The notes below the pieces were generated by a model. That model was not told the origin of the DNA. It saw only the letters and a program-made list of their open reading frames with translations, and did no database searches. Positions 13,380-20,640 of a DNA stretch of 64,000 nt are shown in pieces. The position numbers and the translations under genes are program-made. This DNA comes from an uncultured Erysipelotrichaceae bacterium (lineage in GTDB: Bacteria > Bacillota_I > Bacilli_A > Erysipelotrichales > Erysipelotrichaceae), in assembly GCA_945877255.1 (NCBI GenBank), contig CAMCRE010000004.1, positions 26,484 through 90,483 on the forward strand, in the 5' to 3' direction. The first letter of the stretch is position 1. The number at the start of each line of letters is the position of its first letter.

Positions 13380-15128
13380 ATGAAAAAAGAATTAAATTAT
13401 CCAAAAAAAAATGACACCTTAATTTATGCGTTAGGTGGACTAGGTGAAGTTGGAAAAAACATGACCTGCTTTGAACATGACGATGAAATATTAATTATTG
13501 ATTGTGGCGTGATGTTTCCTGGCGAAGATTTACCAGGTGTAGATTATGTTATTCCCGATTTCACAACACTCGTTAATAATCCAAAAAAGAAAATACTCGT
13601 TATTACACACGGTCATGAAGATCATATCGGTAGTATACCATTTTTATTAAAAAGTGTTAAAATCGATGCGTTCTATGCCCCAAAATTTGCGATTGGATTA
13701 ATTAATAAGAAATTAGAAGAACGAAAAATTATTTATTCACGTGAAATTAAAGTAATTAATAATACATCTACTGTAACCACAAAACATTTTAAATTAGGAT
13801 TTTTTAACACAATCCACTCTATTCCCGATTCACTAGGTGTGATTATTAATTCACCAAATGGTAGAATCGTCCACACAGGTGATTTCAAATTTGATTTAAC
13901 GCCCGTAGGTGCCAACTCCGATTATCAAATTATGTCATTTTTAGGTCAAGTTGGTGTCGATTTATTACTAAGTGATTCTACCAATTCAGAAGTAAGTGGC
14001 TTTTCTACTTCTGAAAAACAAGTTGCACAAAAAATTAATGCGATCATGCAAAAAACACAAGGTCGTTTAATTGTTGCTACTTTTGCATCTAACGTACATC
14101 GTGTTGGGCAAATTTTAGAAGCAGCAGTTAAAAATGGTAGAAAAGTTATCGTATTTGGTCGATCTATGGAAAACGTTGTTGAAATATCACGTAAATTAAA
14201 AACAATTGACATTCAAGAAAATAATTTCTTGAAACCACATGAACTAAATAGTCATCCAGATGAAAAAATATGTATCGTTTGCACTGGTTCACAAGGTGAA
14301 CCAATGGCTGCTTTATCACGTATTGCTTCTGGAACACATCGTCACATTAGATTAAAACCAACAGATACTGTTGTATTTTCTTCATCTCCTATCCCTGGAA
14401 ATGACGGCAGTGTCAATAGTGTTGTCAACAAACTATTCCGTTCTGGTGCAAACGTCCTCACAAAATCTGTTTTTACTGATCTACACACAACAGGACATGC
14501 TTCGCAAGACGAACAAAAATTAATGTTGCAATTAATCAAACCAACATACTTTATGCCCGTACACGGTGAATATCGTATGCTTAAAACACACGCAAACACG
14601 GGTATTGCAACTGGTGTCGACCCTGATAAAGTCATTATCGCTGGAAATGGTGATGTCATTATTTTCCGTAATAAACAAGCATTTAGAAGTGACTATAAAG
14701 TGAGTGGTGAAGATATTTATATCGATGGCAATGATACATCTGGTATTGCATCTTCTGTACTAAAAGATCGTGCTATTCTTGCAAGTGGTGGATTTGTGAG
14801 TGTTGTCGTAACATTAGATTCTCGCAACAATGAAATACTCACAAGACCTTCAATTATTTCACGTGGATTTGTGTTTATTAAGGATAATCAAACGATGATG
14901 AAAGAAGCAGAAGCTATCGTTTATGAAGAATTAAAACGCACAATGCGTAAAAAAACAACTTTCTTAGAAATCAAAAACAATATTAAACATGTTTTAGAAG
15001 CGTTTTTATATAAAGAAACAAAACGCCACACAATCGTTATTCCGGTTATCCTTAATTCAGTTGAAGCAATAAACCAAATTAAACAATACCAAGAAAATAA
15101 GAAAAAATATGAAAAAAATAAAAAATAA
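13380..15128 (+). CDS. rnj: Ribonuclease J
   Basis: Metallo-beta-lactamase/beta-CASP fold, HGHEDHIG. Start at ATG 13380 behind AAAGGAG; the track's N-terminal extension overlaps def. Confidence 0.9.
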   Translation: MKKELNYPKKNDTLIYALGGLGEVGKNMTCFEHDDEILIIDCGVMFPGEDLPGVDYVIPDFTTLVNNPKKKILVITHGHEDHIGSIPFLLKSVKIDAFYAPKFAIGLINKKLEERKIIYSREIKVINNTSTVTTKHFKLGFFNTIHSIPDSLGVIINSPNGRIVHTGDFKFDLTPVGANSDYQIMSFLGQVGVDLLLSDSTNSEVSGFSTSEKQVAQKINAIMQKTQGRLIVATFASNVHRVGQILEAAVKNGRKVIVFGRSMENVVEISRKLKTIDIQENNFLKPHELNSHPDEKICIVCTGSQGEPMAALSRIASGTHRHIRLKPTDTVVFSSSPIPGNDGSVNSVVNKLFRSGANVLTKSVFTDLHTTGHASQDEQKLMLQLIKPTYFMPVHGEYRMLKTHANTGIATGVDPDKVIIAGNGDVIIFRNKQAFRSDYKVSGEDIYIDGNDTSGIASSVLKDRAILASGGFVSVVVTLDSRNNEILTRPSIISRGFVFIKDNQTMMKEAEAIVYEELKRTMRKKTTFLEIKNNIKHVLEAFLYKETKRHTIVIPVILNSVEAINQIKQYQENKKKYEKNKK

Positions 15129-15906
15129 ATTTTTATCAATAATTAGTATTAGCGTACTAGTAATACTTTCTGTTATTGCCTATCAAATATTTTTTTCTAA
15201 TGATCATGTTGTTGTTAAACATGTGCATATTCAATCAGACAAACTCACTGCACCATTTATGATGCGAATAGGTGTTATTTCTGATATTAAATATGGTAAA
15301 TTCATGACAAAAGAGCGATTAGAAAAATTTATCACAGAACTCAACAATGAAAACGTCGATACTGTATTTTTCTTAGGAGACTTATTTCATCCTGGTGTTG
15401 AAATAAGTGAACATCAAATTGAATTAACGAATATTTTAAAAACGATTAATCCAAAAGCTGGTAAATTTTATATTTATGGTAATGGTGATAGTCAAGAAAA
15501 AATCAAACCAATTTTTGATAACGCGCATTTTGAATCACTTAATGAATCTTATACACTATTACACAATAGCAATCAATCTATTCAAGTCTTTGGACTAAAT
15601 ACAACTTATAAAGACATATTTAAATCATTAAATGATTCAAAATATGCAATCGTACTAAGTCACTATCCACACCTTGTAACTTCATTACCTGCTAGCATTA
15701 ATTTAGTATTAAGTGGCCATACACTCGGTAATCAAATCAATATACCACTTATCACTAGCAGTAATGAATACACATTAGGAAAATACGAAATTTCAAACAA
15801 TACAACACTTTATGTCAACGGTGGATTAGGGACAGAAAATAATGATATTCGATTTTTTTCTCCTCCTGAAATCACTGTAATTACAATAGAAGGTACAAAA
15901 AAATAA
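15109..15906 (+). CDS. Membrane-anchored metallophosphoesterase (YkuE-like)
   Basis: N-terminal TM; GDLFHPG, GNGD, SGHTLG motifs. Confidence 0.75.
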   Translation: MKKIKNKFLSIISISVLVILSVIAYQIFFSNDHVVVKHVHIQSDKLTAPFMMRIGVISDIKYGKFMTKERLEKFITELNNENVDTVFFLGDLFHPGVEISEHQIELTNILKTINPKAGKFYIYGNGDSQEKIKPIFDNAHFESLNESYTLLHNSNQSIQVFGLNTTYKDIFKSLNDSKYAIVLSHYPHLVTSLPASINLVLSGHTLGNQINIPLITSSNEYTLGKYEISNNTTLYVNGGLGTENNDIRFFSPPEITVITIEGTKK

Positions 15907-15934
15907 CCGTGAAACAATATTCACGGTTATTTTT
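15905..15934 (+). terminator. Intrinsic terminator
   Basis: AACCGTGAA-acaata-TTCACGGTT followed by ATTTTT. Confidence 0.75.
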
Positions 15935-16070
15935 AATTTAGTTTCGCATTTAATAGCATTTTATAGTTTCCTTTTATCCACAGAGCTTATGTTTCAGTAT
16001 CATAAAAGTGAACTAACAACACCAATTATACTGTCTAAACGACATTTTTAAATTTTGCAAATTCTACGGA

Positions 16071-16118
16071 ATCACTAATGATTCCATTATAAATTTCCTC
16101 TTTTCTACATTTATTTTT
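16071..16118. repeat. Direct repeat copy A (degenerate copy of the mscL 3' end and downstream sequence)
   Basis: 22/22 core ACTAATGATTCCATTATAAATT at 16074..16095 plus shared TCTTTT and ATTTATTTTT; 4-nt insertion relative to copy B. Confidence 0.8.
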
Positions 16119-16286
16119 GTTTTAGTACTACTTACGAAAAATTAAGGAACACAAAATCATAATAGAAATATTTCTTATAAAAATTATTCCTTAATTTTTA
16201 TATCTTTGGTAGTTACTTAAATGGATAACTCACTACTGTAATTTGAGTATATGACATAAAATAATTAAATATTTATATTTTCAACT

Positions 16287-16622
16287 CTATTCATTTTCTA
16301 CTGTATAACCAATAAAAAATGAATAAAACAAGAAAATTGTAATTACTATACTATATAAAACCAAATTAATAACACCATCTATTGGATAAATTACCATAAA
16401 ATGATAAATAACAGCTAAAATAGTAGCTATTATTTCATATATATTAGTTTTTGTTAATTTAATATCAAACATATGTAAATATCTCAGTAAATTAATACTA
16501 TTACCTTGTCCTAAATTAATTGTACTGACACATACTAATACTGTAAATAAAAATAATTCATTAGGATATCGAAATAATTGATTTACAAAAATAATTATCA
16601 CTACCAATAATAATTTTATCAT
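16287..16622 (-). CDS. Polytopic small membrane protein (111 aa)
   Basis: ORF track; about 4 TM segments; ATGA-coupled to the upstream 30-aa ORF. Confidence 0.6.
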   Translation of the reverse strand: MIKLLLVVIIIFVNQLFRYPNELFLFTVLVCVSTINLGQGNSINLLRYLHMFDIKLTKTNIYEIIATILAVIYHFMVIYPIDGVINLVLYSIVITIFLFYSFFIGYTVENE

Positions 16623-16711
16623 AACACCACCATACCCAAAACATAAATTAATAAGATTGTATACAGAATTAAAAATATTTTTTTTATCACACTACATTTT
16701 TTAAAAATCAT
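16619..16711 (-). CDS. Hydrophobic 30-aa peptide
   Basis: Hand translation MIFKKCSVIKKIFLILYTILLIYVLGMVVL; RBS-like TGAGGT upstream; its stop overlaps the ATG of the 111-aa ORF. Confidence 0.45.
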   Translation of the reverse strand: MIFKKCSVIKKIFLILYTILLIYVLGMVVL

Positions 16712-16724
16712 ATTCACCCAAACC

Positions 16725-16843
16725 TCATATAACAGCTACTCCTGCTGCAAATCCTAATAATTTAGCCCACCATGGTAATGCCCAAAATCCTTTTGCAACA
16801 CTCCATCCAATTTTGCCATCAACTGCAAAAAACCTGCAGACAT
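16725..16843 (-). pseudogene. Cationic Trp/Gly-rich peptide gene broken at a T6 run
   Basis: ATG 16843 reads MSAGFL... for 29 codons. The -1 frame from the T-run (16827..16832) reads FFAVDGKIGWSVAKGFWALPWWAKLLGFAAGVAVI* with no in-frame start codon. Confidence 0.45.
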
Positions 16844-16868
16844 TTTGCAGTCCAGTCCTTAAATTAGT

Positions 16869-17051
16869 CTATCTTTTATACATATATTTTAAAAGCTTAT
16901 CACAAATATACTTCATAATAAATAAACTACCTATGAATATTATTTGTTGTACTAAAAAATTACGAAAATTCAATCCATAAACTAAACTTATTCCACTTGA
17001 AATCAATATTCCTGTTGTGTAAAATATTTTTTTAGCCAAAGCATATTCCAT
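16869..17051 (-). CDS. Two-TM small membrane protein (60 aa), immunity-protein-like
   Basis: ORF track; strong RBS GGAGG; directly follows the 45-aa peptide ORF. Confidence 0.6.
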   Translation of the reverse strand: MEYALAKKIFYTTGILISSGISLVYGLNFRNFLVQQIIFIGSLFIMKYICDKLLKYMYKR

Positions 17052-17054
17052 GTC

Positions 17055-17192
17055 CTAATCTACCTCCGACCAACCGTCTGCATAATCAATTGCAGTCGCA
17101 ATATTATCTACCGAATTCCAAGGTTGATTCCACTTAAAAAATCTTCCATCCAAATACAGCATCTCATCTTCGTGTAACTCTACATAATTCAT
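17055..17192 (-). CDS. Acidic Trp-rich 45-aa peptide
   Basis: Hand translation MNYVELHEDEMLYLDGRFFKWNQPWNSVDNIATAIDYADGWSEVD. The RBS is weak, so the start is uncertain. Confidence 0.4.
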   Translation of the reverse strand: MNYVELHEDEMLYLDGRFFKWNQPWNSVDNIATAIDYADGWSEVD

Positions 17193-17195
17193 TGG

Positions 17196-17238
17196 ATAAC
17201 TAATGATTCCATTATAAATTATTCTTTTATTTATTTTT
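17196..17238. repeat. Direct repeat copy B (contains the mscL stop codon)
   Basis: Core at 17199..17220 is identical to 16074..16095; the mscL TAA lies at 17229..17227 inside the repeat. Confidence 0.8.
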
Positions 17239-17595
17239 TAATTCAGCTAAAATAGCTTTTAAAGTTTCTAACTCTTCATTAACAACTGGTTCTTTTTCAA
17301 CAACTGGTTCTTCTTTTTTGAATGCATTCGCTACTTTAACAACACAGAATACTGCAAATGCAACTAATAAGAAGTTAATTGTTGCATTTAAGAATTTTCC
17401 AATTCTAATTGCACCAACTGTAATCATTGAGAAATCTGGTTGTTGGAAAACAGCAGCGATAGCAGCCATTAATACGTCATTAACAAATGATGTTACAACA
17501 GCGCCAAATGCAGTCCCCATAATTACCGCAACTGCTAAATCTAACACATTTCCTCTCATCGCAAATGATTTAAATTCTTCTAAAAACTTTTTCAT
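17227..17595 (-). CDS. mscL: Large-conductance mechanosensitive channel
   Basis: FKSFAMRGNVLDLAVAVIMGTAFGAVVTSFVNDVLM is a typical MscL N-terminus. Confidence 0.95.
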   Translation of the reverse strand: MKKFLEEFKSFAMRGNVLDLAVAVIMGTAFGAVVTSFVNDVLMAAIAAVFQQPDFSMITVGAIRIGKFLNATINFLLVAFAVFCVVKVANAFKKEEPVVEKEPVVNEELETLKAILAELKNK

Positions 17596-17604
17596 CTTTT
17601 CCTC

Positions 17605-18015
17605 CTATTTTGAAATAAAACGTTTAGCAAAATTTTCTAGTTCAAGTAGATAACTATCGTCAGGTTGTTCTAACACAATTTGACCTTTTTCAAATAATAA
17701 AGCGCCAGCAGAAACAACACGTTCTTCCCAATTATTCATCCATTCTCCATCTCCCCAACCGTAAGAACCAAATAATGCAACGTTTTTATTTTCTAACGAT
17801 GGTAAAATCTCTTCAAAAAATGGTCCAAATTCAGAATCATCTAATTCTTCATCACCACATGCAGGACAGCCTAGTGCAATATAATCATATTCTGAAATCG
17901 TTGAAGCATCAAAATCAGAAACAAGTGTTTTTTCAACTCCGATCGCTGTAGCAAACGTTTCAGCTAAAATTTCTGTATTACCTGTACTAGTCCAATAGAT
18001 TACTACTTTTCTCAT
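17605..18015 (-). CDS. Short-chain flavodoxin
   Basis: VIYWTSTGNTE FMN-phosphate loop. Start at MRKVV behind GGAGG (the track start is 17 codons upstream). Confidence 0.85.
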   Translation of the reverse strand: MRKVVIYWTSTGNTEILAETFATAIGVEKTLVSDFDASTISEYDYIALGCPACGDEELDDSEFGPFFEEILPSLENKNVALFGSYGWGDGEWMNNWEERVVSAGALLFEKGQIVLEQPDDSYLLELENFAKRFISK

Positions 18016-18121
18016 AAGACCTCCTAAACTCATTAAAATAATAGCATATTCCGTACTATCATTCAAATATATTGCATAACTTCAAAAATAAAACGGATAA
18101 CAAATTTTATCCGTTTAAAAT

Positions 18122-19075
18122 CTATTGTAATACTTTATACTCTGAAACAACTTCACTAACTGGTTTAGCTTCTTCAATTTGTTTGATGATCTTACCTAAA
18201 ATTTCACCAACTGATAACACCTTAATTTTCTCGATTAACTTAGATTCTGGTATTTCAATTGTGTTTGTGCACACAAACTCAACAATACGCGATTGTTGTA
18301 TTCTTTCAATAGCAGGATTAGATAATACACCATGTGTACACGCTGTATATACTGCTTTTGCTCCATTTTCATATAACATTTCAATACCTGCTGTTAATGT
18401 TCCTGCCGTATCAACGATATCATCAATCACAATAGCTGTTTTATTTTGCACATCACCAATAATATTCATTGCTTCAGCAACGTTTGGTCTAGTACGTCTT
18501 TTATCAATAATTGCAATTGGACAATGTAAAATTTCAGCTAATTTTCTAGCTCTGTTTGTTCCACCATGATCAGGAGAAACAACTACAACATTTTCTAATT
18601 GTTTGCTTAAAAAATATTTTCCAATAATACCAATAGCTGTAATATCGTCAGCTGGAATATCAAAGAAACCTTGAATTTGTGTAGCATGTAAATCCATAGT
18701 AATAATACGTTTAGCACCCGCAACCTGTAATAAATCAGCAACTAATTTAGATGTAATTGGTTGACGTGGTTTAGCTTTACGATCTTGTCTTGCATATCCA
18801 AAATAAGGAATTACAACATTAATCATCCCCGCAGACGCTCTTTTACACGCATCAATAGCAATTAATAATTCAACTAAATGTGTAGAAACAGGATTATAAG
18901 TTGACTGTACAATATACACATTTTTACCACGTACAGATTCTTGTAATTCTACAAGAATTTCTCCATCTGCAAAATGAAATACATCACACTTTCCTACATC
19001 AATACCAATTTGTGCAGCGATTTCTTTCGCTAATTGTTTTGATGCAGATAACGCAAAAATAACAGTCTTACTCAT
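18122..19075 (-). CDS. prs: Ribose-phosphate pyrophosphokinase
   Basis: [10 protein letters not shown] and [15 protein letters not shown] loop. Start at MSKTV behind GAGGGGG. Confidence 0.95.
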
Positions 19076-19712
19076 GTTTTCCCCCTCGTTTTTTTTCATA
19101 TAGTTTATTTCCGTATTGAACTTTATTCACTTGTTTTGCACGTGCTATTGCCATTTCACCTTCAAATACATCGCTCGTGATAGTTGATCCAGCCGCTAGC
19201 AACGCCTTATCTCCTATTGTAACTGGTGCAACAATATTAACGTTTGAACCAATAAAACAATGATTACCAATTACTGTTCTAAACTTATTAATACCATCGT
19301 AATTAACAGTTACAACACCACACCCAACATTAACGTATTCACCTACATCAGCATCACCTAAATATGTTAAATGGGCACATTTACTATAATCTCCGAATTT
19401 AACGTTTTTAAATTCCACAAAATTTCCAATTCGGGTATGATTCCCTACAACTGACTTGCCGCGAATATGGGCGAATGGACCAATTGTGACATCATTTTTT
19501 ACGATACTGTCGATAATCTTACTACTCTCAATCGTTACATTATCGCCGATTTCACTATTTTCAATCGTCGTATTAGGAAGAATAACACAATTACTACCTA
19601 TTTTTGTATTCCCTTTTAAAAAAACATTAGGATAAATAACTGTATTCTCACCAATTTCAACATTTTCATCTATATAAGTGTTATTTTTATCCAAGATTTG
19701 AAATTTTTTCAA
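19068..19712 (-). CDS. Stand-alone GlmU-type left-handed beta-helix acetyltransferase domain (no uridylyltransferase domain)
   Basis: The 214 aa align with the C-terminal half of GlmU (IGPFAHIRG...[11 protein letters not shown]...[11 protein letters not shown]...ARAKQ). TTG start with RBS AAAGGAG and its own TGtTATAAT promoter. Only 109 nt lie upstream before rsmA. Confidence 0.75.
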
Positions 19713-19764
19713 AATATTTCTCCTTTAACAATAATATTTTACGCCTTTTTTTAATAAAAGACAA

Positions 19765-19803
19765 TTGAAATTATAACAAAAATAAAACTTGAATATTGAA
19801 TAA
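19765..19803 (-). terminator. Intrinsic terminator after rsmA
   Basis: AAACTTGAGTATT-attc-AATATTCAAGTTT followed by TATTTTTGTT on the minus strand. Confidence 0.75.
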
Positions 19804-19821
19804 TACTCAAGTTTATTAATT

Positions 19822-20640
19822 TCACAAATAATTCACACTTAAAAACAACTGTTCAAACTGTTCTAAAGTTAATTCTTGTGCACGTTGATTTTCTTTAATA
19901 CCACATTTTTCAAAATGATATAAAATATTATCTAAATGTTTTAAATTATTATATAACGTTTTTCGTCGCTGTTTAAAACAGCAATGTATAAACTCATAAA
20001 ATAATTTTTCGTTTAATGTCGTTCTATTTTTTTTCTCGATAAAACTAATAACAGCAGAATCAACATTAGGAACAGGCATAAAAATATTACGTGAAACATT
20101 TAAAGCTAATTTAATATCATATTTATATTGTGCTATAACACTTAAAGCATTATAATGCTTCGTATTTGGTTTTGCATTAAAACGATCTGCCACTTCTTTT
20201 TGCATCATAACCGTTATTTTTTTAAAAGAATATTCAAATAACTTAAATAAAATAGGTGTTGTAATATAATACGGTAAATTTGCAGCAACAACTGTATTTT
20301 CACCATACTTTTCAATAAAGGAACTTAAATTCACATTTAAAAAATCATCAAAAACAATTTCTAAATTATCAAATCGATTATCATTCCAATATGATTTTAA
20401 AGAATTATCAACTTCATAACTAATAACTTTTTTTCCATACAAACAAAGAAACTGTGTCAACGCACCAATACCAGGACCTATTTCTAATACGACATCATCG
20501 TCATTTTCAATAGCAACTCGTGCAATTTTCTCCACAATTTTTGGTTCAATAATAAAATTTTGACCAAATTTTTTCTTAGTATAAAGTTGGTATTTATCAC
20601 AAATTTCTCTTGTTTTTTTAATTGTTGCTACGTACGCCAC
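19822..20640 (-). CDS. rsmA: 16S rRNA (adenine1518/1519-N6)-dimethyltransferase
   Basis: KKFGQNFI and LEIGPGIGALT SAM motif. Confidence 0.95.
   Translation of the reverse strand: MAYVATIKKTREICDKYQLYTKKKFGQNFIIEPKIVEKIARVAIENDDDVVLEIGPGIGALTQFLCLYGKKVISYEVDNSLKSYWNDNRFDNLEIVFDDFLNVNLSSFIEKYGENTVVAANLPYYITTPILFKLFEYSFKKITVMMQKEVADRFNAKPNTKHYNALSVIAQYKYDIKLALNVSRNIFMPVPNVDSAVISFIEKKNRTTLNEKLFYEFIHCCFKQRRKTLYNNLKHLDNILYHFEKCGIKENQRAQELTLEQFEQLFLSVNYL

What the first reader, a model, noticed from the sequence alone, without database searches (positions are those of the whole stretch)
16071..17238. 1.1-kb small-peptide/membrane-protein islet bracketed by a duplicated mscL 3' end
Seen: an imperfect ~45-bp direct repeat brackets the islet. 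Its core, ACTAATGATTCCATTATAAATT, is identical at 16074..16095 and 17199..17220, and the flanking TCTTTT and ATTTATTTTT are also shared. Copy B contains the mscL stop codon, and copy A has a 4-nt insertion. Five tightly packed minus-strand ORFs lie between the copies, three of them below the 60-aa track cut-off. They are an acidic Trp-rich 45-mer, a 2-TM 60-mer with RBS GGAGG, a broken cationic Trp-rich peptide, a hydrophobic 30-mer, and an ATGA-coupled 111-aa 4-TM protein. Inference: the repeats look like att-type duplication from a site-specific insertion just downstream of mscL. The gene content resembles a peptide toxin or bacteriocin plus immunity cassette. No exporter, leader peptidase or recombinase is present, so it may depend on functions encoded elsewhere or be a remnant.
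Basis: partly seen in the sequence, partly recalled or inferred. Interest (0 to 1): 0.6.

Follow-up and report, generated by a model that had tools for sequence, protein, structure and literature searches.

The report
Decayed bacteriocin cassette behind mscL
The 1.2-kb islet behind mscL is a horizontally acquired, largely broken fragment of an ordinary "double-glycine leader" bacteriocin gene array, and its flanking repeat is the shared start of two tandem bacteriocin genes, not an integration site.

Summary
In detail: a 22-nt exact core inside a ~45-55-bp imperfect direct repeat, 1125 nt apart, brackets five small minus-strand ORFs.

The att reading does not hold. A 95%-identical cassette in other samples carries one intact 104-aa precursor, with a double-glycine leader (METLVMPMNYVELQEDEMMYLDGG) and an ~80-aa mature peptide. 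There the same repeat sits in front of successive tandem precursor genes. The repeat is therefore the ribosome-binding site plus leader-coding start of tandem paralogous bacteriocin genes.

Intact relatives have a C39-peptidase ABC exporter, a 155-aa protein, an LcnD-like accessory protein, and then the precursors.

In the window:
- Precursor 1 has lost its RBS, has a 1-nt deletion, reads GR instead of GG, and carries a premature TGA.
- Its middle is replaced by 331 nt of foreign DNA carrying the 60-aa membrane-protein gene.
- The "45-mer" is a leader-junk fusion, and the "broken cationic peptide" is the precursor's 3' remnant.
- Precursor 2 (copy A) is a stub.

The genome has no C39 exporter. 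The sister species has an empty site, with 19 nt between mscL and the next gene.

The intact 30-aa and 111-aa membrane genes are candidate orphan immunity genes; this is untested. The finding is ordinary, of low to moderate interest.

The parts
17227..17595 (-). mscL (122 aa), native gene. The islet lies between its stop codon and its terminator.
   Evidence: Pfam MscL E 3e-33. The C-terminus is colinear with the same-genus orthologue in L004.
17229..17239 (-). Left junction. The A-rich microhomology AAAAAATAAAT is shared by the native mscL end and the cassette's intergenic module.
   Evidence: Alignment of copy B with L033, L034 and L129. G001 shows that the mscL end is native.
17146..17228 (-). 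Copy B: decayed expression module of precursor gene 1. The SD is lost (GAGGAAA becomes GAATAA). The first ATG is at 17210-17212 (MESLVIQ*). A 1-nt deletion puts it out of frame with the leader MNYVELHEDEMLYLDG. The double glycine reads G-R.
   Evidence: blastn at 92% to L024 1-74; alignments; sequence.
17055..17192 (-). The '45-mer': a chimeric ORF. It is a leader remnant (16 aa) fused at the GG position to 29 aa read from foreign DNA (acidic, pI 4.2).
   Evidence: Homology to L024 ends at 17146. It has no homologue other than itself among 5.8 G proteins. No Pfam or NCBIfam hit. Charge.
16815..17145 (-). 331-nt foreign segment that replaces 133 nt (about 44 codons) of the precursor's mature region.
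   Evidence: blastn of the window against L024. No match elsewhere in the genome or in the fetched loci.
16869..17051 (-). 60-aa, 2-TM, cationic small membrane protein. It is a real gene family and is not specifically linked to bacteriocins.
   Evidence: Homologue P0015 at 56% identity, E 2e-14. In L131 it stands alone with its own promoter, between a glycosyltransferase gene and a 97-aa membrane-protein gene. Hydropathy.
16827..16850 (-). Weak terminator-like hairpin CTGCAaaatgtCTGCAG followed by a T6 tail, after the 60-mer gene. It contains the ATG of 'MSAGFL' and the T6 'frameshift' run.
   Evidence: Terminator scan. The T6 run is identical in L022.
16701..16814 (-). 3' remnant of the precursor gene (AVDGKIGWSVAKGFWALPWWAKLLGFAAGVAVI*GLGEYDF*). 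It corresponds to residues about 66-104 of the family. A premature TGA at 16725-16727 stands where relatives have TGG.
   Evidence: Alignment A1; tblastn 66-67% to P0002; mismatch list; translation.
16619..16717 (-). 30/32-aa single-TM peptide that overlaps the precursor's 3' end and is ATGA-coupled to the 111-aa gene. It is a candidate immunity component.
   Evidence: 99% DNA identity to L024. The same arrangement is seen in L024, L033 and L034.
16287..16622 (-). 111-aa 4-TM protein, intact. It is a conserved partner of this precursor subfamily and a candidate cognate immunity protein.
   Evidence: 93% identical in L024 and L033. A 32%-identical 121-aa homologue follows the precursor in G220, a genome of another genus. 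No Pfam or NCBIfam hit. dN/dS about 2 from 9 changes.
16127..16286 (-). Unit spacer. Relative to L024, a 259-nt stretch (including the lcnD 3' remnant) is deleted at about 16126, between short ACTAAAA(T)CAA repeats.
   Evidence: blastn blocks; sequences.
16060..16126 (-). Copy A: expression module of precursor gene 2. The SD AAGAGGA is intact and the ATG is at 16085-16087, but only about 8 leader codons remain (MESLVIP*) and the rest of the gene is deleted.
   Evidence: 88% to L024 1156-1215; alignment A3.
15937..15995 (-). Third, partial copy of the module's promoter-proximal part (TATAAAATGCTATTAAATGCGAAACTAAATTAAAAATAA). It ends at the right junction with the chromosomal terminator.
   Evidence: blastn at 76-77% over 62 nt to the intergenic regions of L034, L129, L024 and L033, and 87% over 30 nt to both L026 copies; alignment.
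15899..15934 (.). Bidirectional intrinsic terminator with a perfect 15-bp stem, shared by the phosphoesterase gene and, now 1.3 kb away, mscL.
   Evidence: The equivalent single hairpin sits between the two genes in G001.
15109..15906 (+). Calcineurin-like metallophosphoesterase gene, the right-hand chromosomal neighbour.
   Evidence: Pfam Metallophos. Syntenic in G001.

Best explanation
The islet is a horizontally acquired, transporter-less and largely pseudogenised fragment of a class II (double-glycine-leader) bacteriocin gene array. It sits in the short A-rich spacer between the mscL stop codon and the terminator that mscL shares with the neighbouring phosphoesterase gene.

In intact relatives the system works in the standard way. 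Precursors carrying the leader METLVMPMNYVELQEDEMMYLDGG are cleaved after GG and exported by a C39-peptidase ABC transporter (PCAT) with an LcnD-type accessory protein. Small membrane proteins encoded directly downstream protect the producer. Each precursor gene is preceded by the same expression module: a remnant of the lcnD 3' end, a promoter-like TATAAAAT box, the RBS, and the leader. The arrays grow by tandem duplication of that module.

Neither precursor in the window can make a bacteriocin. Gene 1 has lost its SD, has a 1-nt deletion, reads GR instead of GG, has its middle replaced by 331 nt carrying an unrelated 60-aa membrane-protein gene, and has a premature TGA. Gene 2 is an 8-codon stub. 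The genome encodes no PCAT.

Two inferences remain. First, the still-intact 30-aa and 111-aa membrane genes, and possibly the 60-aa one, are transcribed by read-through from mscL and act as orphan immunity against the relatives' bacteriocin. Second, the DNA entered by a Campbell-like or microhomology crossover at AAAAA(A)TAA, because both ends of the insert fall at the same point of the module.
For: Shown:
- The repeat is real.
- L024, L033 and L034 are 95% identical to window 16126-16814. They carry one intact 104-aa GG-leader precursor followed by the 30/43-mer and the 111-mer. The module recurs at both ends of L024 and before the second unit in L034, with an lcnD 3' remnant.
- In L033 and L129 the module follows a real LcnD-like gene.
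- The intact loci L026-L032 read PCAT(C39)-155 aa-LcnD-like-precursor-membrane protein-further precursors.
- The leader is 100% conserved on unrelated mature peptides.
- Pfam Bacteriocin_IIc hits 5 of 6 family members, best E 2.7e-5.
- The window's pieces align to residues 8-24 and 66-104 of the family.
- The lesions are read directly from the sequence.
- The 98.5%-complete genome has no Peptidase_C39, LcnD-like or 155-aa homologue.
- A second paralogue on contig C1 is also broken, by a stop in the leader plus a frameshift.
- G001 has an empty site.
- The family is present in only 7 of 401 genomes of the taxonomic family.
- The cluster is about 90% identical at DNA level to one in Carnobacteriaceae bacterium zg-ZUI252, where it lies next to prophage lysis genes and serine recombinases.
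- The insert ends with the promoter-proximal half of the module and starts with its RBS-proximal half.
- A homologue of the 111-aa protein follows the precursor in another genus.
- The only terminator-like site inside the islet is a weak 5-bp hairpin.
Against: - An immunity function for the 30-, 111- and 60-aa proteins is inferred from position only. None matches a known immunity family.
- The 111-aa gene shows 8 nonsynonymous and 1 synonymous difference from L024, so no purifying selection is visible.
- The 60-mer's only homologue is not in a bacteriocin context.
- The junction argument rests on an 8-11-nt A-rich string in a 30% GC genome and on a 62-nt match at 77% identity.
- The right half of the islet is seen in only one assembly.
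- The genome is a 20-contig draft, so a PCAT in a gap cannot be fully excluded.
- The species of the L024, L033 and L129 contigs is unknown.
Confidence: 0.8

Rival explanations
1. One reading: the ~45-bp direct repeats are attL/attR-type duplications made when a mobile islet inserted site-specifically just downstream of mscL.
For: The repeats are direct, significant and bracket most of the islet. The sister species has an empty site. Related clusters lie next to serine recombinase genes.
Against: The repeated sequence is the RBS plus leader codons found in front of every precursor gene of the family, in several unrelated genomes and at several places per locus. Cassette-derived DNA continues about 125 nt beyond copy A. 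The islet contains no recombinase. The mscL end is native, not duplicated.
Confidence: 0.05
2. In-situ decay: a complete cluster (PCAT-155 aa-lcnD-precursor array) once sat between mscL and the terminator. The transporter genes were later deleted by recombination between the A-rich mscL end and the A-rich intergenic module. On this view a transporter-less fragment was never imported.
For: The left junction lies exactly where the module follows lcnD in L033 and L129. Deletions between short repeats have demonstrably occurred inside the islet (the 259-nt deletion).
Against: The right junction falls at the same point of the module as the left one. A single circular-permutation crossover predicts this; two independent deletions would produce it only by coincidence. 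No trace of PCAT, 155-aa or lcnD coding sequence remains at copy B.
Confidence: 0.25
3. The islet is still an active peptide-producing cassette. The 45-mer and/or a T6-frameshifted 39-aa 'leaderless' peptide would be made and exported by functions encoded elsewhere, with the membrane proteins acting as immunity.
For: The ORFs are tightly packed and the 45-mer is open. The T6 run is stable in a second assembly.
Against: The 45-mer has no SD, lacks the GG cleavage site, and its tail has no homologue. The start-less frame aligns to the C-terminal third of 104-105-aa GG-leader precursors and is further truncated by a TGA. The ATG and T6 run form a terminator-like hairpin behind the 60-mer gene. 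The genome has no PCAT.
Confidence: 0.04

Closest known systems
Class II double-glycine-leader bacteriocin loci exported by peptidase-containing ABC transporters (PCATs), such as lactococcin A lcnCD-lcnA-lciA and the pneumococcal blp locus (Pfam PF10439 Bacteriocin_IIc, PF03412 Peptidase_C39)
   Same: Intact relatives of the islet have the canonical parts: a leader with hydrophobic residues at -4, -7, -12 and -15, Glu at -8 and GG at -2/-1; a PCAT; an LcnD/AprE-type accessory protein; several precursors sharing one leader; and small membrane proteins directly downstream.
   Different: The window's copy has no PCAT or accessory genes, a GR site and disrupted precursors. The mature peptides of the family are long (about 80 aa, with a WALPWWAK motif), and the family is annotated only as hypothetical. 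A conserved 155-aa protein lies between the PCAT and the accessory gene. The 111-aa partner matches no known immunity family.
Producer/'cheater' polymorphism of the pneumococcal blp locus (disrupted blpA transporter with immunity genes retained; Son et al. 2011, PMC3171984)
   Same: Export capacity is lost, while genes downstream of the bacteriocin genes stay intact. The variable bacteriocin-immunity region is mosaic.
   Different: Here the transporter is entirely absent rather than frameshifted. The bacteriocin genes themselves are also broken. Immunity activity is untested. The remnant sits behind a housekeeping gene and has no regulatory genes of its own.
Leaderless bacteriocins of the lacticin Q / aureocin A53 type (recalled from memory as a lead because of the MSAGFL start)
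   Same: A short, cationic, Trp-rich peptide would result if the T6 run were read through.
   Different: The Trp-rich frame is homologous to the C-terminal third of leader-bearing 104-105-aa precursors. It is not homologous to a leaderless family, and no family model matched.

Membership tests
Class II bacteriocin with double-glycine leader (PF10439-type GG peptide) | N-terminal leader ending in Gly-Gly (or GA/GS), with conserved hydrophobic positions and Glu at -8 | tested here: not met
   The window copy reads ...EDEMLYLDG-R, and the stub of copy A stops after 7 codons. Intact relatives P0002-P0011 do meet it.
Class II bacteriocin with double-glycine leader (PF10439-type GG peptide) | Match to the curated family model | tested here: inconclusive
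   The window's 45-mer and 3' remnant have no hit. Relatives: 5 of 6 hit Bacteriocin_IIc, best E 2.7e-5. P0002 itself scores 13.7 bits against a cut-off of 27.1. P0005 and P0008 carry precomputed PF10439.
Class II bacteriocin with double-glycine leader (PF10439-type GG peptide) | Dedicated C39-peptidase ABC exporter and accessory protein in the locus or genome | tested here: not met
   No PF03412 in the 98.5%-complete genome. tblastn with the PCAT, LcnD-like and 155-aa proteins found only generic ABC domains. These genes are present next to the homologous precursors in L026-L032, L129 and L033.
Class II bacteriocin with double-glycine leader (PF10439-type GG peptide) | Antimicrobial activity of the mature peptide and protection by the downstream gene | not testable with these tools
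   Needs expression and killing/immunity assays.
att-flanked site-specifically integrated island | Direct repeats lie exactly at the two boundaries of the foreign DNA | tested here: not met
   Copy A lies at 16060-16126, but cassette-derived DNA continues to 15937. The repeat is an internal gene-start module.
att-flanked site-specifically integrated island | Recombinase or integrase encoded in or next to the island | tested here: not met
   No such ORF between 15907 and 17226. No family hits.
att-flanked site-specifically integrated island | Empty site in relatives | tested here: met
   G001 (same genus): mscL stop, then 19 nt, then the phosphoesterase stop, with one hairpin. No closer strain was found.
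Orphan bacteriocin-immunity ('cheater') locus | Immunity gene intact and functional while production/export is lost | tested here: inconclusive
   Export is lost and the precursors are broken. The 30-, 111- and 60-aa ORFs are intact, and the 111-aa family co-occurs with the precursor in another genus. However, dN/dS is about 2, and function and expression are untested.
Leaderless bacteriocin (lacticin Q / aureocin A53 type) | Complete short ORF starting at the mature peptide's Met, homologous to the family | tested here: not met
   There is no start codon in the frame. The frame aligns to residues 66-104 of leader-bearing precursors.

The most novel reading that the evidence does not exclude
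The remnant is kept because it works as a constitutive orphan-immunity operon. By landing between mscL and its terminator, the intact 30-aa and 111-aa (and 60-aa) membrane proteins would be transcribed with a housekeeping gene. They would then protect this small-genome gut Erysipelotrichales bacterium against an uncharacterised family of about 80-aa GG-leader bacteriocins (WALPWWAK motif). That family circulates on mobile elements among Firmicutes with a 100%-conserved leader module that serves as a recombination handle for swapping toxin/immunity cargo.
Probability: 0.25. Interest if true: 0.45.

Novelty: new member of a known kind. Interest (0 to 1): 0.28.

Why it matters
For genome annotation, the locus shows how several "small ORFs" can be fragments of a single broken gene, and how a direct repeat that looks like an att site can be the shared 5' module of tandem paralogues. 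It also corrects another note of this scan: the T6 "frameshift" is a truncation remnant next to a terminator tail, not a recoding site.

Biologically, it points to an uncharacterised bacteriocin family. The family has long (about 80-aa) mature peptides and an invariant leader on diverse cargo. It has a 155-aa conserved partner of the exporter and two unclassified candidate immunity types (a 111-aa 4-TM protein, and 177-210-aa HExxH membrane proteins). It is spread patchily across Firmicutes.

If the surviving membrane genes confer immunity, this would be an Erysipelotrichales example of the producer/cheater dynamics known from the pneumococcal blp locus.

Tried and rejected
1. Pfam and NCBIfam on all five ORFs found nothing usable.
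2. Strain-level empty sites:
   - Exact look-ups of MscL gave only two contigs, both identical to the window.
   - The 111-mer, 45-mer and phosphoesterase had no other record.
   - The metagenome-contig scan with MscL gave nothing closer than 54% identity.
3. The origin of the 331-nt segment could not be traced. blastn and tblastx against the genome and all fetched loci found nothing. Only the 60-mer has a distant homologue.
4. The similarity between the 45-mer tail and P0012 ('RF') was rejected as a 2-residue chance match.
5. The 111-mer compared with the 177/195-aa downstream proteins of L026 and L027 showed no significant similarity.
6. The AlphaFold model of the precursor family had low confidence (pLDDT 59, all-helical), so no fold search was run. 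The PDB sequence search found nothing.
7. Rfam found only sub-threshold chance hits.
9. The last look-up, with the L129 LcnD-like protein, gave no longer contig, so the chromosomal context of the intact donor-like cluster stays unknown.
10. A CTG start for the Trp-rich frame (AAGGA 5 nt upstream) was considered. It was dropped once the frame proved to be a 3' gene remnant.
Full report
**Observation.**
- The 22-nt core ACTAATGATTCCATTATAAATT occurs at 16074-16095 and 17199-17220 and nowhere else in the window. No match is expected by chance, even with three mismatches allowed.
- With its flanks it forms a ~45-55-bp imperfect direct repeat spaced 1125 nt apart.
- Copy B overlaps the mscL stop codon (17227-17229), and copy A has the extra CTAC.
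- Two other assemblies, L022 and L023, are identical to the window as far as they reach, and L022 includes the T6 run.

**What the repeat is.**
- The 111-aa protein has a single homologue cluster among 5.8 billion proteins (93% identity).
- Its contigs, L024 and L025, and then L033 and L034, are 95% identical to window 16126-16814 without gaps.
- They carry one intact 104-aa ORF where the window has the "45-mer", the "60-mer" and the "broken peptide". It reads METLVMPMNYVELQEDEMMYLDGG|WDAKK...WALPWWAKLLGFAAGAAVIWALGEYDF.
- The N-terminus is a textbook double-glycine leader: GG at -2/-1, Leu -4, Met -7, Glu -8, Leu -12, Tyr -15. The consensus is quoted from established knowledge of GG-leader peptides.
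- The sequence AAGAGGAAATTTATAATGGAAACATTAGTTATGCCAATG, which is the RBS plus the first leader codons, stands at both ends of L024. In L034 it stands in front of a second identical unit, preceded by a remnant of the 3' end of an lcnD-like gene.
- The same "lcnD-remnant/intergenic/leader" module is reiterated before successive precursors in G145, G333 and L026.

**The intact system.**
- The precursor family is small: 11 clusters, annotated as hypothetical proteins where annotated at all.
- The 24-residue leader is 100% identical on at least six unrelated mature peptides.
- Five of six full-length members hit Pfam Bacteriocin_IIc, best E 2.7e-5.
- In L026 (Carnobacteriaceae bacterium zg-ZUI252) and L027-L032 the order is: C39-peptidase ABC transporter (745 aa), a 155-aa protein, an LcnD/AprE-type accessory protein (449-457 aa), the precursor, a 177-195-aa membrane protein, and then further precursors.
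- L033 and L129 show the LcnD-like gene directly upstream of the module. These genes are 89-91% identical at DNA level to L026.
- L129 and L033 are 94% identical through the lcnD 3' end and the leader and diverge exactly at the mature peptide. The leader therefore acts as a boundary for cargo exchange.
- In L026 and L028 the cluster lies next to prophage lysis genes and serine recombinases.
- Within the window's own taxonomic family, only 7 of 401 genomes have a match.
- The leader type occurs in Lachnospiraceae, Streptococcus, Enterococcus, Turicibacter, Neobacillus and others.
- This is patchily distributed accessory DNA.

**Anatomy of the window's copy, read on the minus strand.**
- *Copy B (17146-17228).* It matches L024 1-74 at 92%, but:
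  - its SD is gone (GAGGAAA becomes GAATAA);
  - a 1-nt deletion separates the first ATG (MESLVIQ*) from MNYVEL...;
  - the cleavage site reads G-R.
- *The break in homology.* Homology stops precisely after GAT GG. The next 331 nt (17145-16815) replace 133 nt of the mature-peptide region and match nothing else in the genome or in the fetched loci.
- *The "45-mer".* It is therefore a leader remnant fused to 29 codons read from foreign DNA. It has no homologue.
- *The foreign segment.* It carries the 60-aa gene. This is a genuine small 2-TM protein family: P0015 is 56% identical (E 2e-14), and in L131 it stands alone with its own promoter in a non-bacteriocin context.
- *Behind the 60-aa gene.* A weak hairpin CTGCAaaatgtCTGCAG followed by a T6 tail lies at 16850-16827. 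The "MSAGFL" ATG sits in its loop, and the T6 tail is the supposed frameshift run.
- *The start-less Trp-rich frame.* It aligns to residues 66-104 of the family and carries TGA where relatives have TGG (16725-16727). It is the 3' remnant of precursor 1, not a frameshifted gene.
- *Its first ~50 nt.* They are only 76% identical to L024, against 94-99% further on, so the remnant is itself a mosaic.
- *The 30/32-aa and 111-aa genes.* They follow intact, at 99% and 97% DNA identity to L024.
- *The spacer.* It lacks 259 nt present in L024, deleted between short ACTAAAA(T)CAA repeats.
- *Copy A (16060-16126).* It keeps a good SD but only about 8 leader codons (MESLVIP*).
- *Beyond copy A.* 15937-15995 matches the promoter-proximal half of the module (TATAAAAT...GAAACTAAA...AAAAATAA). 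It abuts the terminator stem at 15934.

**Capacity to produce.**
- The 98.5%-complete genome has no Peptidase_C39 domain.
- It also has no homologue of the PCAT N-terminus, the LcnD-like protein or the 155-aa protein.
- A second family member, on contig C1 at about 58.19-58.50 kb, is also dead, with a TAA in the leader, GR, and a frameshift. It is followed by a 49-aa 2-TM peptide homologous to the 50-aa peptide behind P0006 in L129.
- The organism cannot process or export these peptides.

**How it got there.**
- In the same-genus genome G001 the order flavodoxin-mscL-phosphoesterase-rnj is conserved.
- There, the mscL stop and the phosphoesterase stop are 19 nt apart, around a single bidirectional hairpin.
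- The G001 mscL ends ...ILAELKKR*, colinear with the window's ...ILAELKNK*. The mscL end is therefore native and not a duplicated copy.
- The insert begins with the RBS-proximal half of the module right after AAAAAATAAAT (17229-17239). It ends with the promoter-proximal half, finishing in AAAAATAA, just before the hairpin.
- The insert is thus a circular permutation of the tandem array, split at one A-rich point.
- I infer a single Campbell-like or microhomology-mediated event that imported a transporter-less piece of an array.
- In-situ loss of the transporter genes is the main alternative. I give the two about 0.5 and 0.25.
- Either way, the 45-bp repeats are not att sites, although a very short A-rich duplication at the true ends may be.

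**Function now.**
- Shown: no bacteriocin can be made from this locus.
- Inferred:
  - The islet lies between mscL and its only strong terminator, so it is probably co-transcribed with mscL.
  - The precursor sequences have taken at least four independent disabling hits, while the 30-, 111- and 60-aa ORFs have taken none.
  - A 32%-identical homologue of the 111-aa protein follows the precursor in another genus (G220).
  - Together these suggest retained orphan immunity. This resembles blp "cheater" pneumococci, which lose the exporter but keep immunity (PMC3171984).
- Against: there are 8 nonsynonymous and 1 synonymous differences from L024, which rejects strong purifying selection.

**Verdict.**
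- The bacteriocin/immunity and "remnant inserted behind mscL" parts of the interpretation are supported. The att reading of the repeat is not.
- This is a new, decayed member of a known kind of system and is of low to moderate interest.
- The underlying precursor family, and its 111-aa and HExxH-type partners, are uncharacterised and would be the more rewarding targets.

Noticed in passing
own genome G000 contig C1:58190-58652 (outside the window): A second, more divergent member of the same precursor family. It is also a pseudogene (MKLVLSNNYVELE*EEMIHIDGR, then a frameshift, then an 80-aa mature homologue). A 49-aa 2-TM peptide follows it, homologous to the 50-aa peptide behind P0006 in L129. 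A RelE/Phd-like pair lies just downstream.
   Followed up: partly
L026:10379-10912, L027:10318-10905, L035:2190-2822: 177-210-aa multi-TM proteins with a conserved HE(Y/I)xH motif follow the 105-aa precursors in intact loci. They have no Pfam hit on record and may be metalloprotease-type immunity proteins.
   Followed up: no
L026:8044-8511, L027:8076-8543, L129:2-472: A conserved 155-aa soluble protein with no Pfam family is always inserted between the C39-ABC exporter gene and the LcnD-like accessory gene. It is 78-95% identical between loci.
   Followed up: no
L026:1-5657 and 16777-20318; L028:1-5121: The intact bacteriocin cluster lies directly after a prophage tail/holin/amidase block and next to large serine recombinases. 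It may therefore travel as phage or mobile-element cargo.
   Followed up: no
L035 (G220:C1:~323400-324800): Another decayed copy in a different genus of the same family. It has fragmented lcnD pieces, a precursor with a truncated leader and GC instead of GG, and intact 121-aa and 210-aa membrane genes. This is the same pattern of a dead toxin gene with intact partners.
   Followed up: partly
window 16137-16199: A perfect 13-bp inverted repeat (AAAAATTAAGGAA / TTCCTTAATTTTT) with a 37-nt loop lies in the spacer after the 111-aa gene. The second arm is degenerate in L024, so it is probably not functional.
   Followed up: partly
window 17605-18066: The flavodoxin ORF is listed as 153 aa from a TTG, but gene callers on L022 and L023, and the G001 orthologue, give 136 aa from an ATG. 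The annotated start should be the shorter one.
   Followed up: no
L034:1-24: This Logan contig begins with a Nextera adapter sequence (CTCGGAGATGTGTATAAGAGACAG), so its first 24 nt are not genomic.
   Followed up: yes
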